This document shows positions 15,001-21,000 of a stretch of DNA of 64,000 bases, piece by piece. A program made the position numbers. Source of the DNA: a bacterium (GTDB lineage Bacteria; SAR324; NAC60-12); assembly GCA_965205865.1 (NCBI GenBank), contig CBDBHR010000030.1:576001-640000 (forward strand). Direction: 5' to 3'. How positions within the stretch are numbered: position 1 is the stretch's first letter; each line of letters begins with the position of its first letter.

Positions 15001-18000
15001 GTACGGCGACTGCTGAAGAAACGCCCGGTATCACTTCAAAGGGCAGATTGGCTTCAACGACTGAGGCCAATTCTTCTCCGCCTCTGCCAAATATGAAAGG
15101 ATCCCCTCCCTTCAGACGGACGACAATTTTATTTTCCAGGGCTTTTTGAACAATCAGTTCGTTGATATGCTGCTGAGAGATCGTGCGTTGGCCATGCCGT
15201 TTGCCTGCATCGATCAACTCCGCGCGAGGGGCATGTCGCAGGAGGAGGGGATTTGCGAGGAAATCGTAGATCACCACGTCCGCCTGCTGCAGAACTTCCC
15301 GCGCCTTGAGAGTGAGCAGACCGGGGTCGCCGGGACCGGCTCCAACCAAATATACTTTACTTCTGGAATGGGACATCATTAATACAAGTGAGATTGTGAG
15401 AGCGTTCGGCTATCAACGCTTTGATGATGAATAGTTGTCGTAAAAAATTAAAAACCCCCTCCCCTAGTGTGTCGCTCTTTTATTAATGTGTAAAAAAATC
15501 CTTGGTTTGCTATACTACGAGCTGTCCTTTTTTTTGCATATATGGAGACAGCATGAGAAAAGCACCAAGTATAAAACTGACCCGGGAAGAACGGGATGAA
15601 TTGGGCAAAACCGCACGCCGTCATACCGGAGCGATGCGAGACACTCGTCGTGCGCGCATCATCCTGTTGGCTGCTGATGGCCTTAAGAATCAAGAAATTG
15701 CCAAAACGCTTGGAACCAGCGGTAATGCCGTTGGAAAGTGGCGACGGCGCTTTGTTGAAAAAGGAATAACAGGTCTCAATGATGATCCGCGGCCTGGCAG
15801 GACACGCATTTATGGAGCGGATAAAATCGAGGAGATTGTGAAGAAAACCATTGAAGAGAAGCCTGAGGACCGTACCCATTGGAGCACGCGATCGATGGCC
15901 AAGGCAGTTGGCGTAGGCAAGACAACCGTCGGTAAAGTATGGAAGGCCCATCGCCTCAAGCCTCATCTGGAAAAAACATTTAAGTTGTCGCATGATAAGC
16001 ATTTCACTGCGAAACTGAAAGATGTCATCGGTTTGTACATGAATCCTCCTGAGAAAGCGCTGGTCTTGAGCGTCGATGAGAAATCACAAATCCAGGCACT
16101 CGATCGCACCCAGCCAGGTCTGCCACTGAAACCAGGGCGCAATGGCACCAGAACTCATGATTATATCCGTCATGGCACCTGCTGTCTGTTTACTGCTTTG
16201 AATACGCAGACAGGGGAAGTGCTCGCTCGCTGTGAAAAACGGCACCGACACCAAGAGTATCTGCGCTTCCTGCGTCTTATTGACAAGACTACCTCGAAGC
16301 AACTGCAGGTACACTTGATCCTGGACAATTACGCCACCCACAAACATCTTAAGGTGAAAGAATGGCTCAAAAAACACCCGCGATTTCACCCGCATTTCAT
16401 TCCTACTTCCTCCTCATGGCTGAACATGGTGGAACGCTTTTTTGGCAAGATCACTGCAGAACGGATTCGACGAGGCGCCTTCAAAAGCGTGCTCGAGTTG
16501 ACCGAAGCCATCCATAGTTACATCGAGACACACAATCGCAACCCAAAACCCTATGTCTGGACTAAAACTGCCGAAGAAATTATCAACAAACTCAAACCTG
16601 TCTACCAAATGACCAATAATACAATGTATTAAACAGGCAATACACTAGCCCCTCCCTCGAGGGGAGGGGGATTCTTTTGACAAAATTTCCCGTCGCTGAC
16701 CTCTCCCTCGAGGGGAGGGGGATTCTTTTGACAAAATTTCCCGCCGCTAAGCTCTCCCTCGAGGGGCGGGGATTCATTTGAAATCGTTTACACTCATACA
16801 CCTTCCACAAATTACCCCTCCCCTAGCCCCTCCCTCGAGGGGAGGGGGATTCTTTTGAAATCGTTTGCACTCACGCACCTTCCACAAATTACCCCTCCCC
16901 TAGCCCCTCCCTCGAGGGGAGGGGGATTCTTTTGACAAAATTTCCCGCCGCTGACTTCTCCCTCAAGGGGAGGGGGATTCTTTTGACAAAATTTCCGCCG
17001 CTGACCCCTCCCTCGAGGGGAGGGGGATTCTTTTGACAAAATTTCCGCCGCTGACCCCTCCCTCGAGGGGAGGGGGATTCTTTTGAAATCGTTTACGCTC
17101 ATACACCTTCCACGACCTGCCGGTACGCCCGCCGGATTCCCAGGAGTAGCAATGCGTCTTGGCTGAGTCCATAGTGCCGGGCCAGCAATGCGTGGACGGT
17201 TTTGAAATCCTGCTCATGCGCTTTCTTTTGCTCAAAAATCACTTGCAGGTCATCAACGATATGTTGGTAACGTATTTTCCGAGGGGGAACGTTGGTGGTC
17301 AGTTTGCGCTTCATCGATATTCCCTGATCAATTCAGGCATGCAATCACGGATGCAGGAAAATAACCAGATTCACATGGCTCGACAAGACAATTTATACGA
17401 AATCTTGGGCACCTTTCATTTTCCAGTTTACAACTCCCCTGTCATCTTCGCGAAGGCGGGGATCCATCTTCGTGAATAATACTGGATTCCTGCCTGCGCA
17501 GGAATGACAACAAAGGCGGCAAACTGTAAACTACTTTTTTCTATTTTTGAAGGGTCCCAAATCTTCATTAAAATGTCGAGTTCAAGCAAAGGAGTTCAGT
17601 TGGCCGGGACGAAACCCCGCCCTACCATAACGTCGTTTCCGCGAACGCGAAATTCAGGGGCTTGGGTATGGGTATTTTCTTAAAAAAACTTGCAAAGCCA
17701 TCCTCTTCGAGGTTAATATTGCCTTTCGTCAACAACCCTTCTTAAAACAGGGGACGGGAAGGCCCTCCGGCAGATCAGGGAGGGGTGGGTGAGTGGTTGA
17801 AACCGGCGGTCTTGAAAACCGTTGAACGCGAGTTCCGGGGGTTCGAATCCCTCCCCCTCCGCCAGGGTTCCGGATCTTCCCTGACTTGGAGAGATGACTG
17901 AGAGGCCGAAAGTGGCAGATTGCTAATCTGTTGTACTCGCAAGGGTACCGAGGGTTCGAATCCCTCTCTCTCCGCCACCTCGCACGCGCTCGTAGCTCAG

Positions 18001-21000
18001 TTGGATAGAGCATCTGATTGCGGTTCAGAAGGTCGCAGGTTCGAATCCTGTCGGGCGCGCCACTCGATTCATCTCCACTACAACCGCTTTTGAGTCCAAT
18101 ATAACGGAAAACAAACTGTATTTTCAATAAGAAATTTTCCGTGTAAAGAGCAATGAAGGACCAGCGAAAGCGACCACCCGATAAAGTGCGCAGGCAGGCA
18201 TTCCCGCCGCGGTCGTCACCCTCGAGCAGGGAAGTATCGTGAACAAACTCACCGCCATCATTCCTACTTTCAATGAAGAACGGAATATCGAAGACGTTAT
18301 CAAATCGCTGTCTTTTGCCGACGAAATAATGGTCGTCGACTCCTTCAGTACCGACAGGACGATCGAGATTGCCCGCCGCTATACCGACTTTATTCTACAG
18401 CGGAAATACGAGAACAGCGCCTCACAAAAAAATTGGGCCATTCCACAAGCCAACTATGACTGGATCCTGCTGGTCGACGCGGATGAACGAGTGACCCCGC
18501 AATTGAGGGATGAAATCAGAAGCGTTTTAAGGAGTGACAGTGATCCTGTCGCATTTTGGATTGGACGCAGCAATTTTTTTATGGGGAAAAAAGTACGTTT
18601 CAGCGGTTGGCAGGGAGATGGCGTTATCAGGCTATTCAGGAGGGACGAGTGTCGCTATCAGAATAAACGGGTTCATGCTGAAATTGAAACAGACGGGAAA
18701 ATCGGGTTTCTTAAAAACAAATTGAATCATTATACTTATGCCGATCTCTCCCGGTACATAAAAAAATCAAATTATTATTCCACCTGGGGAGCATACGACA
18801 GGGTCGAAAAAGTAAAGAAGGTCACTTTATATCACTTGTTGATAAAGCCCGCGGCCCGATTCTCGAGACATTATGCGTTCAGACTGGGGTTTCTGGACGG
18901 CAGAGTAGGGTTCATTATCTCCGTACTCTCGGCTCAGCAAGTTTTTATGAGAAACCTCAAATTGTGGCGGATAAAAAATGGCGAAGAATTCGATAAAAGT
19001 AAATAATTCCGCAATCACCGAGAGCGTATAGGCGTCATCATATTTTTTTAAAAAATTCTTGATACTTCCAAAGTTGAGAGTAGCCTAACTTTTTTTCAAC
19101 ATAGAGTCGGTTGATCGTACCCGGCAATCCATGTGATTTCGATATTTGTTTGCTCTCTCGAGCTGCCGGTTCCATGAGAGTGAATCGAGAAAGGAGTCAC
19201 AATCTTTTAAATACATGCAACGAACAGGAGGAAGCATGAAATTTGGTGTTCAAGTAAATTGTTATAATACGACCTGGGATGAGATCCGCAGGTCAATTGA
19301 AACGATGGAGGCGGGACGATGGAATAGTCTGTGGTTTGCCGACCACTTTCTGCCACCCATCCCGGGTTCGGTTCCAAACTCAAAAGAAGAACTCTTGACG
19401 GCGTTTGAAGGGTATACCCTGATCGCCGTAGCGGCAGGAATGACAGAAAAACTGAGGCTTGGTCATTTGGTGTTGGGCAACACGTATCGCAATCCGGCAC
19501 TGCTCGCGAAAATGGCAGCCACGTTGGACCAGGCTTGCAAGGGGCGTTTCACCTTGTCACTCGGCGCGGCCTGGTTCAAACGGGAACACGAAGCATTCGG
19601 CTGGGATTTCCCCACGATGAAGGAACGGCAGGATCGATTCCAGGAAGCGTGTGAAATGATTCGCATGCTCTTCACCGCCGATGCTCCGGTCGACTACAAC
19701 GGCGAATACTATCGACTCGACAATGCCCCGCTTTCTCCCGGTTGTTATCAACAACCGCACATTCCGATCATGGTGGGAGGCACGGGAGAACGTCGCACGT
19801 TGCGTACGTTGGCGATGTTTGGTGACGTCTTCAATCTCGATGGTTGGGCGGGTCAAGGCATGTCCATGGATGTCTTCCGACATAAGATCGGCGTATTGAA
19901 TAAACATTGCGAGAACATCGGTCGCGACCCGGCGGAAATCAAACACACCCTGCTTTGTCCATTGCAGGTCACGGAGGACCAGGCCTCCGAGGAAGCCTTC
20001 CAAAAACGATGGGGGCCCGGAGCGATGTGCGGGTCTCGAAGCCATGTCGTCGATCGCATCGGTCAGTTCGTGGAGGAAGGTGTCGACGAGATTATATTTG
20101 GCCATCTTCCCACCGGCAACGTGGAAGCTTATCAGCGGGTGGAAGAAGAAATCGTTGCGGTCTTCTGAGCGATTGCCGGCGTAATCAGATTAAAAAAAGG
20201 CGTGTCTCCCAGGTGGATGGGCGAGGATGGCTTCTTCATTCAAATCAGTGCCCCAACCGGGGCCTGTGGGTATATGAAATTGTCCGTCCTCGATCAGCGG
20301 AACGTTGGTGACGATGTCATCCTTCCAGGGCACGTCGTCGATATCGATTTCCATAATACGAAAATTCGGTACTGCGGCGCATAAATGGGCACTCGTGATG
20401 GAAGAAAGGTGCCCATAAAAATTGTGGGGGGCCACGTTGATTTCGTAGGCCTCCGCCAGTGCGGCAATTTTGAGCGATTGCCAGATTCCATTCCAGCTGA
20501 CGTCGATGATGGCGACGTCCATCGCGTAATGTTCAAAATAGGGTTTGAAACCTCGCAATCCATACAAGGACTCGCAAGAAGCAATCGGGGTTCGCACCGC
20601 GTCTCGAATCATTCTCAAAGAGGGGGGATCGAAGAGATCTATTTCGAACCAGGTCAGTCCGAGATCATCGAGAGCATGCGCCACTTGTAAATAACCTTCC
20701 GTCTTGAAATTGAAATTCAAATCGAGGTGAATGCCCAAATCCGGCCCTGCCCCTTCTCGCAGGGCGAGGAGTTGCTCCCTCAGTCCATCGATGATTGCTT
20801 TGTCCGCGTTCAGTTCAGGCCAGCCCGGCGTTTTCGAGAAACCCGCTCCATACACTGTGGGTGAGTCGCCCAGAATAAAGATATTGGTTTTCAAAGCCTT
20901 GAATCCTTTTTCGCGCACCTCCCGAGCCAACGAAATCAAATCTTGCATGCTTCGTACCGGGGGTTTTCCTACTGCGGCAGCCGATTGTTCTCTGATGCGG

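What a model noticed while it worked through the whole genome (the two positions that open the first line are those of the whole stretch)
17986..18062. No wobble inosine: tRNA-Arg(GCG) in place of tRNA-Arg(ACG), and no TadA
The genome decodes CGN arginine codons with G34, U34 and C34 tRNAs (anticodons GCG, UCG and CCG). It has neither tRNA-Arg(ACG) nor the A34 deaminase TadA. The closed genome of a sister species is the same, tRNA-Arg(GCG) was found widely in the family, and no canonical TadA was found in the sampled genomes of the order or the phylum.
Evidence so far: - Arg anticodons are CCU, UCU, CCG, UCG and GCG, with no ACG. Arg(GCG) scores 68.6 bits on Rfam tRNA. - TadA NF008113 gives one hit at 50.4 bits against a cut-off of 150. 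That ORF is a RibD-type deaminase: 139.5 bits for RibD against 50.5 for TadA. - PF14437 hits only that ORF here and only its ortholog in closed G001. - A six-frame scan for the HAE..PCxxC motif gives 0 hits. - G001 has 42 tRNAs, none with A34, and the same five Arg anticodons. - 0 of 41 genomes of the order are over the TadA cut-off. 0 of 40 phylum genomes match at E<=1e-25, while 8 of 14 controls ring. - Arg(GCG) is in 20 of 24 family loci fetched. - All CGN codons are in use.
(Added by a program. Inside this text positions count along the whole contig: contig position 576,001 is position 1 of the stretch shown here. "Call 12" and the like, gene names such as g00115 and contig names such as C1 are that model's own, and its searches are not shown. 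The text may have been shortened before it was handed on; [...] marks where a part breaks off. The agent that wrote the report below was given it as the finding of a first reader that could run no searches.)

Follow-up and report, generated by a model that had tools for sequence, protein, structure and literature searches.

The report
Arginine tRNA(GCG) in TadA-less bacterium
This bacterium reads the CGU and CGC arginine codons with an ordinary G-starting tRNA instead of the usual inosine-modified one and has no gene for the modifying enzyme, a real arrangement that is already known from several other bacterial groups.

Summary
Window 17986-18062 (+) is a sound tRNA-Arg(GCG). The genome has Arg anticodons CCU, UCU, CCG, UCG and GCG, and no ACG. 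Its only catalytic cytidine-deaminase-fold ORF is the deaminase half of a split RibD, not TadA.

The closed sister genome G001 has 42 tRNAs, none with A34, and the same five Arg anticodons. Its only deaminase-fold genes are the RibD half and a cytidine deaminase.

In the family, 33 of 33 purine-34 tRNA-Arg matches carry G34. No genome of the 88 held for the phylum passes the TadA cut-off, and every top hit I classified belongs to another enzyme family.

tRNA-Arg(GCG) replacing ACG is in print for all sequenced Thermotogae and Spirochaetes (PMC8007984) and for tadA-less Mollicutes (PMC3711424). Repeated TadA loss is also in print (PMC6063277). My scan hit its 120-locus limit with tRNA-Arg(GCG) genes under more than ten phylum-level labels.

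Verdict: a new member of a known kind, of low interest. I could not name the phylum.

The parts
17986..18062 (+). tRNA-Arg, anticodon GCG. It has a 7-bp acceptor stem, the D loop reads GGATA, the anticodon loop is UUGCGGU, the variable loop has 5 nt, and the 3' CCA is encoded.
   Evidence: ARAGORN. RF00005 68.6 bits, E 1.1e-14, full model 1-71. Cloverleaf MFE fold of -26.6 kcal/mol. Sequence read.
17888..17977 (+). tRNA-Ser, anticodon GCU, the middle gene of the cluster.
   Evidence: ARAGORN. RF00005 57.2 bits.
17779..17864 (+). tRNA-Ser, anticodon UGA, the first gene of the cluster. The same Ser-Ser-Arg(GCG) order is found in G001 and in G068 (family f6).
   Evidence: ARAGORN. RF00005 59.3 bits. 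Synteny.

Best explanation
The gene encodes a normal bacterial tRNA-Arg whose wobble base is a genomically encoded G.

Decoding, by standard wobble rules (inferred):
- G34 pairs with C and U, so this tRNA reads CGC and CGU.
- CGA is read by tRNA-Arg(UCG).
- CGG is read by tRNA-Arg(CCG), with help from UCG.

No tRNA carries A34, so there is nothing for the A34 deaminase TadA to act on, and the genome encodes no TadA. The lineage translates the CGN box the way Archaea do, without inosine. Other TadA-less bacteria such as Thermotogae, Spirochaetes and some Mollicutes do the same.

What is shown: the tRNA set, the lack of a TadA-type gene, and the same state across the family and in other phyla. 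What is inferred: the codon assignments of each tRNA and the chemical absence of I34.
For: - tRNA-Arg(GCG) is real.
- G000 has GCG, UCG and CCG and no ACG.
- Closed G001 has 42 tRNAs covering all 20 amino acids. Its Arg anticodons are GCG, UCG, CCG, UCU and CCU, with 0 A34.
- The only catalytic CDA-fold ORF in G000 is RibD-type. It scores 139.5 bits on TIGR00326 against 50.5 on TadA. Its best solved relative is RibD 2b3z at 103.7 bits, against TadA 1z3a at 38.3. Its motif is HAE..PCTFYGRTPPC.
- A separate RibD_C reductase gene scores 150.5 bits, so the deaminase is needed for riboflavin synthesis.
- In G001, PF00383 finds only that RibD half and a dimeric cytidine deaminase, NF006537 at 256 bits.
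- In the family, a pattern allowing A or G at position 34 matched 33 places in 32 of 45 genomes. All 33 carry G.
- In the phylum, 0 of 88 genomes pass the TadA cut-off.
- An ACG-plus-T-arm pattern matched 26 places in 14 of 88 genomes. ARAGORN confirmed tRNA-Arg(ACG) at only one of the 9 loci I tested.
- The same ACG pattern finds the four tandem tRNA-Arg(ACG) genes of E. coli, which is the positive control.
- All four CGN codons are common.
- The same state occurs elsewhere: 119 of 120 named loci hold tRNA-Arg(GCG).
- Five named genomes holding it have no TadA-model hit above 60.4 bits. Four of them have no ACG-pattern match.
- Print: PMC8007984, PMC3711424 and PMC6063277 (passages).
Against: - There are no tRNA modification data.
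- G000 is 91.9% complete and lacks tRNA-Lys, so tRNA genes are missing from the assembly.
- ARAGORN calls an A34 tRNA-like element, Ala(AGC), in G000. It is below every Rfam threshold.
- G068, in the same class, has two ARAGORN-called tRNA-Arg(ACG) genes beside its GCG gene.
- G074 and G079 (family f7) encode a protein whose N-terminal domain aligns over nearly the whole of S. aureus TadA at 67.9 bits. That ties with guanosine deaminase at 67.1, so it stays unassigned.
- My DNA patterns need particular D-arm or T-arm sequences and can miss divergent tRNAs. 13 of 45 family genomes gave no match at all.
- The TadA model is E. coli-centred.
Confidence: 0.88

Rival explanations
1. tRNA-Arg(ACG) and tadA exist in this organism but lie in the roughly 8% of the genome that was not assembled. 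tRNA-Arg(GCG) would then be an extra, auxiliary isoacceptor.
For: G000 is 91.88% complete and lacks even tRNA-Lys.
Against: The closed single-contig genome of the same genus has a full tRNA set without ACG. It has no TadA-type ORF. 33 of 33 purine-34 tRNA-Arg matches in the family carry G.
Confidence: 0.03
2. Inosine is still made by an unrecognised enzyme on an unrecognised A34 substrate. The enzyme might be the stand-alone RibD-type deaminase moonlighting. The substrate might be the tRNA-like Ala(AGC) element.
For: ARAGORN calls a tRNA-Ala(AGC). The deaminase half of RibD is a free-standing protein of about 148 aa, similar in size to TadA.
Against: The Ala(AGC) element scores 21.9 bits at best, under all gathering scores, and has a 3-bp D stem. 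G001 has no A34 tRNA among its 42. The deaminase has the RibD zinc motif PCx8C, and its solved relatives are RibD. A separate RibD_C partner exists. Stand-alone RibD-type deaminase clusters of about 150 aa occur in other bacteria.
Confidence: 0.03
3. This rival concerns history only and leaves the mechanism unchanged. The phylum never had TadA and tRNA-Arg(ACG). G34 would be the retained ancestral bacterial state, not a secondary loss followed by an A34-to-G34 change.
For: - The state is uniform across all seven families sampled.
- I recognised no TadA pseudogene or relic.
- The Ser-Ser-Arg(GCG) cluster is shared by families f1 and f6.
- The tRNA body is closest to E. coli argX (CCG) at 84.8%, not to an ACG gene.
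- Iyer et al. 2011 (PMC3239186, passage) take G34 as ancestral and TadA as a later bacterial invention.
- tRNA-Arg(GCG) is common in Patescibacteria, Chloroflexota, Thermotogaceae and Spirochaetota labels.
Against: Diwan and Agashe 2018 reconstruct TadA at the bacterial root with repeated later losses (PMC6063277, passages). Similarity of tRNA bodies carries little phylogenetic signal. I built no tree and made no ancestral reconstruction.
Confidence: 0.3

Closest known systems
[quoted passage not shown] 2021, PMC8007984, passage read)
   Same: These are whole bacterial phyla with GCG in place of ACG, and the paper links ACG to the presence of tadA. In my scan, labels of both groups hold tRNA-Arg(GCG). 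A closed Spirochaetaceae chromosome had no TadA-model hit and no ACG-pattern match.
   Different: This is a different, unnamed phylum. Only 88 genomes are held for it, nearly all of them draft assemblies.
Mollicutes of the Pneumoniae group and M. pulmonis: life without TadA (Yokobori et al. 2013, PMC3711424, passages read)
   Same: tadA is absent, ACG is replaced by GCG, and UCG is present to read CGA and CGG.
   Different: Those genomes are reduced and lack tRNA-Arg(CCG). Here the genome is 4.3-4.7 Mb at 48% G+C, keeps CCG, and uses all four CGN codons heavily.
Repeated evolutionary loss of TadA in Bacteria (Diwan and Agashe 2018, PMC6063277, passages read)
   Same: TadA loss goes with loss of the target tRNA (ACG) and presence of non-target tRNAs. 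The paper says two of its inosine losses have no significant shift in G+C or tRNA content, which fits the unremarkable 48% G+C here.
   Different: The clades are named only in figures and supplements, which I could not see. I cannot say whether this phylum was among the 1093 genomes.
Archaeal decoding of CGN
   Same: There are no A34 tRNAs and no A34 deaminase, and G34 reads the pyrimidine-ending codons (PMC8007984, passage).
   Different: This organism is a bacterium. Its 16S scores 1592.5 bits on RF00177. Its tRNA-Arg is 84.8% identical to an E. coli tRNA-Arg.
Canonical bacterial TadA / tRNA-Arg(ICG) system (E. coli)
   Same: The same codon box is served, and tRNA-Arg(CCG) is kept for CGG.
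   Different: There is no ACG gene and no TadA. An extra UCG isoacceptor covers CGA, which I34 would otherwise read.

Membership tests
tRNA (RF00005), arginine isoacceptor | Matches the tRNA covariance model over its full length, above the gathering score | tested here: met
   68.6 bits against 29, model positions 1-71 of 71
tRNA (RF00005), arginine isoacceptor | Anticodon NCG with C35 and G36. A at position 20 of the D loop is an ArgRS identity element, a rule I recall and did not take from any call. | tested here: met
   ARAGORN gives anticodon gcg at position 35. The D loop reads AGTTGGATA, with A after G18 G19. Aminoacylation itself was not tested.
TadA, tRNA adenosine(34) deaminase (NF008113) | Score at or above the curated cut-off of 150 bits | tested here: not met
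   Best in G000 is 50.4 bits and in G001 50.2. 0 of 88 phylum genomes pass, the best being 96.2 bits. Only 6 of 14 control genomes pass, so the test is strict.
TadA, tRNA adenosine(34) deaminase (NF008113) | HAE plus (E)PCxMC zinc motif (Iyer 2011, PMC3239186), with TadA as the best relative | tested here: not met
   The G000 ORF has HAE..PCTFYGRTPPC, and RibD is its best relative. The six-frame motif scan found no HAE..PCxxC.
TadA-less G34 decoding state (as in Thermotogae, Spirochaetes and Pneumoniae-group Mollicutes) | No tRNA-Arg(ACG) gene | tested here: met
   G000. Closed G001, 42 of 42 tRNAs typed. Family: 0 of 33 purine-34 matches carry A.
TadA-less G34 decoding state (as in Thermotogae, Spirochaetes and Pneumoniae-group Mollicutes) | tRNA-Arg(GCG) present, with tRNA-Arg(UCG) to read CGA | tested here: met
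   Arms like the UCG anticodon arm occur in all seven families, but outside G000 and G001 I did not check them with ARAGORN.
TadA-less G34 decoding state (as in Thermotogae, Spirochaetes and Pneumoniae-group Mollicutes) | No inosine at position 34 in mature tRNA | not testable with these tools
   Needs tRNA sequencing or mass spectrometry.
RibD deaminase domain (TIGR00326, N-terminal half) | Best match to RibD over the deaminase domain, the RibD zinc motif, and a reductase partner in the genome | tested here: met
   139.5 bits over profile positions 1-142 of 343. This is under the whole-protein cut-off of 156.35 because only the deaminase half is present. PDB RibD 103.7 bits. RibD_C at G000:C30:1000532-1001167, 150.5 bits.

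The most novel reading that the evidence does not exclude
G34 decoding of CGY in this phylum would be the retained ancestral bacterial condition, not a loss. The same would hold for the many lineages that share it: Patescibacteria, Chloroflexota, Thermotogota, Spirochaetota, Thermoleophilia- and Gaiellales-type Actinomycetota, and Armatimonadota. TadA with tRNA-Arg(ACG) would then have arisen inside Bacteria and spread. That would overturn the reconstruction that places TadA at the bacterial root.
Probability: 0.2. Interest if true: 0.5.

Novelty: new member of a known kind. Interest (0 to 1): 0.15.

Why it matters
As a single finding it matters little, because it adds one more lineage to a known list of bacteria that do without wobble inosine.

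It is useful in three practical ways:
- A missing tadA and tRNA-Arg(ACG) in these genomes should not be read as incompleteness.
- The 150-bit TadA cut-off and sub-threshold TadA hits need care. Guanine, cytosine and RibD deaminases score 50-96 bits on that model.
- The spread of tRNA-Arg(GCG) seen here is wide. The scan hit its 120-locus limit with labels from more than ten phylum-level groups. TadA may therefore be much less universal in Bacteria than textbook statements imply, which bears on whether TadA is ancestral.

Tried and rejected
- **Divergent TadA among the weak hits.** I rejected this for every hit I classified.
  - G000 and G001 hits are the RibD half.
  - G068 and G064 hits are guanine deaminase: 1wkq at 153.9 and 149.1 bits, against TadA at 71-77.
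  - G065 and G010 share the same motifs by eye.
  - The G009 hit is a yeast-type cytosine deaminase beside a upp-like ORF.
  - The second G001 hit and one hit in each of G064 and G065 are cytidine deaminases.
  - NCBIfam has no better model than TadA for several of these, so there it lists TadA first, below the cut-off.
- **Not resolved.**
  - The G074 and G079 fusion proteins.
  - The G004 and G016 proteins of about 170 aa with an SxPCQMC motif.
  - The G064 and G065 proteins of about 200 aa with HGE..HEPCSMC.
- **tRNA-Ala(AGC) as an A34 substrate.** Rejected as below threshold.
- **Origin of the GCG gene from an ACG gene by tRNA-body similarity.** This led nowhere. The gene is 66-82% identical to the genome's own Arg tRNAs and 66% to the G068 ACG genes. 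Its best E. coli match is argX (CCG).
- **First GCG pattern.** It was too strict and matched only 12 of 88 genomes. I replaced it.
- **Naming the phylum.**
  - The genome-contig scan did not return the window's own kin.
  - 16S identity to five named MAGs was 78-85%. The best long match was 83% to a Nitrospinaceae MAG over 1213 bases. This is not decisive.
  - The protein-atlas search gave no taxonomic help.

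
Full report
**1. The observation**

ARAGORN finds three tRNA genes in the window. They form a head-to-tail cluster on the + strand: Ser(UGA) at 17779-17864, Ser(GCU) at 17888-17977 and Arg(GCG) at 17986-18062. Rfam's tRNA model matches the Arg gene over its whole length at 68.6 bits, against a gathering score of 29.

The sequence folds as a plain cloverleaf. 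It has a 7-bp acceptor stem, a D loop AGTTGGATA, an anticodon loop UUGCGGU, a 5-nt variable loop and an encoded CCA.

The flanks are ordinary:
- an IS630-type transposase ORF at 15502-16632
- a family-2 glycosyltransferase-like ORF at 18239-19006
- a luciferase-like oxidoreductase ORF at 19146-20168

Promoter-like sites are enriched upstream, and there is no terminator-like site.

**2. The genome's tRNA set**

The window is G000:C30:576001-640000. The assembly has 30 contigs, 4.74 Mb and 91.88% completeness. Its 16S scores 1592.5 bits on the bacterial model.

ARAGORN on all contigs gives 48 calls. The Arg anticodons are CCT, TCT, CCG, TCG and GCG, and ACG is absent.

Two caveats apply:
- There is no tRNA-Lys, so some tRNA genes were not assembled.
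- ARAGORN also calls a tRNA-Ala(AGC) at C30 913280-913351. It has a 3-bp D stem. Its best Rfam match is 21.9 bits (E 0.26) to tRNA-Sec, under every gathering score. I treat it as a tRNA-like relic.

**3. The closed sister genome**

G001 is of the same genus: one contig of 4,258,857 bp. It gives 42 RF00005 matches.
- All 20 amino acids are served.
- The Arg anticodons are GCG, UCG, CCG, UCU and CCU.
- None of the 42 has A34.
- The Ser(UGA)-Ser(GCU)-Arg(GCG) cluster is conserved there. It is also conserved in G068 of family f6, where Ser(GGA) follows it.

**4. No TadA in G000 or G001**

In G000 the TadA model NF008113 gives one real hit, at 50.4 bits against a cut-off of 150. The evidence that this ORF is a RibD half, not TadA:
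- Its likely product, counted from MKQAIEL, is 148 aa, with the motif HAE..PCTFYGRTPPC.
- It scores 139.5 bits on RibD TIGR00326 over profile positions 1-142, against 50.5 on TadA.
- Its solved relatives are RibD proteins (2b3z, 103.7 bits). TadA is far behind (1z3a, 38.3 bits).
- A separate RibD_C reductase gene lies at C30:1000532-1001167, at 150.5 bits. RibD is therefore split, and the deaminase half has a job in riboflavin synthesis.

PF00383 and PF14437 find no other catalytic deaminase-fold ORF. The one extra weak hit is a 107-aa ORF without zinc ligands. It matches the second, non-catalytic domain of the G001 cytidine deaminase.

In G001, PF00383 finds the RibD half and a two-domain cytidine deaminase, NF006537 at 256.4 bits.

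A six-frame scan of G000 for [HC]xE..PCxxC gave 7 hits. None has HAE and none lies in a deaminase ORF.

**5. Family and phylum**

Only 88 genomes are held for the phylum. They fall in seven families, all of one class.

*tRNA evidence*
- A D-arm-plus-anticodon pattern that allows A or G at position 34 matched 33 places in 32 of 45 family genomes. That covers 17 of 19 high-quality genomes and 11 of 12 genera. All 33 places carry G.
- A GCG-plus-T-arm pattern matched in 66 of 88 genomes. Some of those matches are variable arms of Ser and Leu tRNAs.
- ARAGORN confirmed tRNA-Arg(GCG) at 14 of the 15 anticodon-type loci I tested, in families f1, f2 and f3.
- The matching ACG pattern hit 26 places in 14 of 88 genomes. 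I tested 9 of those loci, and only G068:C269 holds tRNA-Arg(ACG), in two copies.
- I did not test six Ser-variable-arm look-alikes, and I tested only one locus of the G006 tandem repeat.
- As a positive control, the ACG pattern finds the four tandem ACG genes of an E. coli chromosome.

*TadA model*
- 0 of 41 order genomes pass the cut-off, and 0 of 88 phylum genomes.
- Only 6 of 14 control genomes pass that cut-off. I therefore classified the best hits instead of trusting it.
- G068 (96.2 bits) and G064 (84.8 bits) are guanine deaminases. Against PDB 1wkq they score 153.9 and 149.1 bits, with TadA at 71-77.
- G065 and G010 share the guanine-deaminase motifs.
- G009 (81.2 bits) is a yeast-type cytosine deaminase next to a upp-like ORF. 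It scores 148 bits against solved cytosine deaminases.
- The many hits of 50-63 bits in ORFs of 150-210 aa carry the RibD PCx8C motif wherever I looked.

*Results against a clean phylum-wide claim*
- G074 and G079 (family f7) have a 295-301 aa protein whose N-terminal domain aligns with nearly all of S. aureus TadA at 67.9 bits. That is level with guanosine deaminase at 67.1. Pfam sees only generic deaminase domains there. Both genomes have GCG-type and no ACG-type matches.
- G068 carries the two ACG genes on a 4.6-kb contig. Its G+C of 33% is like the rest of G068. The neighbouring 390-aa protein has no relative at E<=1e-10 in the other 87 genomes. That fits a foreign or mis-binned contig but does not prove one.

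**6. How it works**

These steps are inferred from standard wobble rules.
- G34 reads CGC and CGU.
- tRNA-Arg(UCG) reads CGA and can help with CGG.
- tRNA-Arg(CCG) reads CGG.

All four codons are in heavy use. CGT, CGC, CGA and CGG make up 19.2, 24.1, 15.2 and 20.4% of Arg codons in 1821 long ORFs. The set must therefore be complete, and it is.

Arms like the UCG anticodon arm occur in all seven families. The pattern matched in 72 of 88 genomes, a count that includes Pro(CGG) arms, and I did not check these with ARAGORN.

With no A34 tRNA there is no substrate for TadA. The chemical absence of inosine is inferred, not shown.

**7. What is known**

- Ehrlich et al. [quoted passage not shown] They also state that ACG goes with tadA.
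- Yokobori et al. 2013 (PMC3711424, passages) describe Mollicutes that lost tadA, replaced ACG by GCG and gained UCG.
- Diwan and Agashe 2018 (PMC6063277, passages) infer TadA at the bacterial root, followed by repeated loss.
  - The clades are named only in figures and supplements, which I could not open.
- tadA (yaaJ) is dispensable in B. subtilis (PMC10454642, abstract and passages).

**8. Spread seen here**

A scan of one genome per GTDB species used a D-arm-plus-GCG-anticodon pattern. ARAGORN calls tRNA-Arg(GCG) in 119 of the 120; the other locus is cut by a contig end.

My hand count of the record labels:

| Label group | Loci |
|---|---|
| Patescibacteria-type | 37 |
| Chloroflexota-type | 25 |
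| Spirochaetota | 14 |
| Actinomycetota (Gaiellales, Thermoleophilia and others) | 14 |
| Campylobacterota | 5 |
| Armatimonadota | 4 |
| Gammaproteobacteria labels | 3 |
| Thermotogaceae | 2 |
| SAR324 | 2 |
| Delta labels | 2 |
| Myxococcota | 1 |
| Bdellovibrionales | 1 |
| Nitrospinaceae | 1 |
| Methylomirabilota | 1 |
| Bipolaricaulota | 1 |
| Unlabelled | 7 |

Five of these genomes were searched with the TadA model: a closed Spirochaetaceae, a closed Thermoleophilia, Thermalbibacter longus, a Kerfeldbacteria and a Doudnabacteria. None passes the cut-off. The best hit is 60.4 bits, in frames of 377-471 aa. That length suggests RibD, which I infer and did not test. The four that I searched with the ACG pattern (all but the Kerfeldbacteria) have no match.

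**9. Origin**

The GCG gene is 66-82% identical to the genome's other Arg tRNAs and 66% to the G068 ACG genes. Its best E. coli match, at 84.8%, is the tRNA-Arg of the argX-hisR-leuT-proM cluster. That gene is the CCG isoacceptor by my recall of the operon.

Body similarity therefore does not show an A34-to-G34 change. Whether the state is a loss or a retained ancestral condition stays open. Iyer et al. 2011 favour G34 as ancestral (PMC3239186, passage). Diwan and Agashe favour loss.

**10. Verdict**

It is one more lineage in a known and, on this evidence, common class of TadA-less bacteria.

I could not name the phylum. 16S identity to five named MAGs was 78-85%. I therefore cannot say whether this particular lineage is in print. 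A listing for tadA with Patescibacteria showed no paper holding both among the 12 listed of 131.

Novelty: new member of a known kind. Interest: 0.15.

Noticed in passing
G000:C30:913280-913351 (- strand; outside the window): A tRNA-like element that ARAGORN calls tRNA-Ala(AGC). It has a 3-bp D stem and lies in a stretch of about 700 bases without ORFs. Its best Rfam match is 21.9 bits to tRNA-Sec, below threshold. It may be a decayed tRNA or an integration-site relic.
   Followed up: partly
G000:C26:222250-222657 (-) and G000:C30:1000532-1001167 (+): RibD is split into a free-standing deaminase of about 148 aa and a separate reductase on another contig. The deaminase gene sits next to a group II intron reverse-transcriptase-like ORF (L002 415-954). 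Stand-alone deaminase halves of 150-210 aa recur across the family.
   Followed up: partly
G000:C26:31046-31237 (L017 1351-1674, -): A 107-aa ORF equal to the second, non-catalytic domain of the two-domain cytidine deaminase that is intact in G001 (L262). In G000 the catalytic half seems to be missing or broken.
   Followed up: no
G068:C269 (L269 2337-2411 and 2721-2795): These are the only ARAGORN-confirmed tRNA-Arg(ACG) genes found in the phylum. Two copies lie 384 bases apart on a 4.6-kb contig. The genome also has the phylum-type Ser-Ser-Arg(GCG) cluster and no TadA-type hit. The neighbouring 390-aa thioredoxin-like protein has no relative in the other 87 genomes.
   Followed up: partly
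G074:C223:29626-30072 (L093 1456-2358) and G079:C1:35433-35864 (L094 1471-2355): A 295-301 aa protein with an N-terminal TadA-like deaminase domain (HAE..HEPCPMC). The domain scores 67.9 bits against S. aureus TadA over almost its full length. A C-terminal region of about 140 aa has no Pfam match. It was seen in two family-f7 genomes that have GCG and no ACG pattern match.
   Followed up: partly
G006:C285:542-6501: Eleven tandem copies, 593 bases apart, of a unit that holds a tRNA-like 3' half: an ACG-like arm plus a T arm. ARAGORN calls no tRNA in the one locus I tested (L068).
   Followed up: no
G049:C15:936-964 (L065): A stretch that looks like this genus's tRNA-Arg(GCG) anticodon-to-T-arm region, but with A at position 34 and one base fewer in the variable loop. 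ARAGORN makes no call. It may be a decayed duplicate.
   Followed up: no
G004:C32:4927-5214 and G016:C623:22772-23074 (L006, L007): Deaminases of about 170 aa with an HAE..S(R/K)PCQMC motif and an N-terminal stretch of about 60 residues that the deaminase domain match does not cover. TadA is their only NCBIfam hit, at 64-65 bits. Function unknown.
   Followed up: no
window 16812-17235: Between the IS630-type transposase ORF (15502-16632) and the tRNA cluster, minus-strand ORFs carry repeated peptide motifs (PLPSREG, KNPPPLEG). This points to short DNA repeats in the region.
   Followed up: no
G000, whole assembly: No tRNA-Lys gene is called in the 30 contigs, whereas G001 has tRNA-Lys(UUU). 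It is a reminder that tRNA genes are missing from this assembly.
   Followed up: yes
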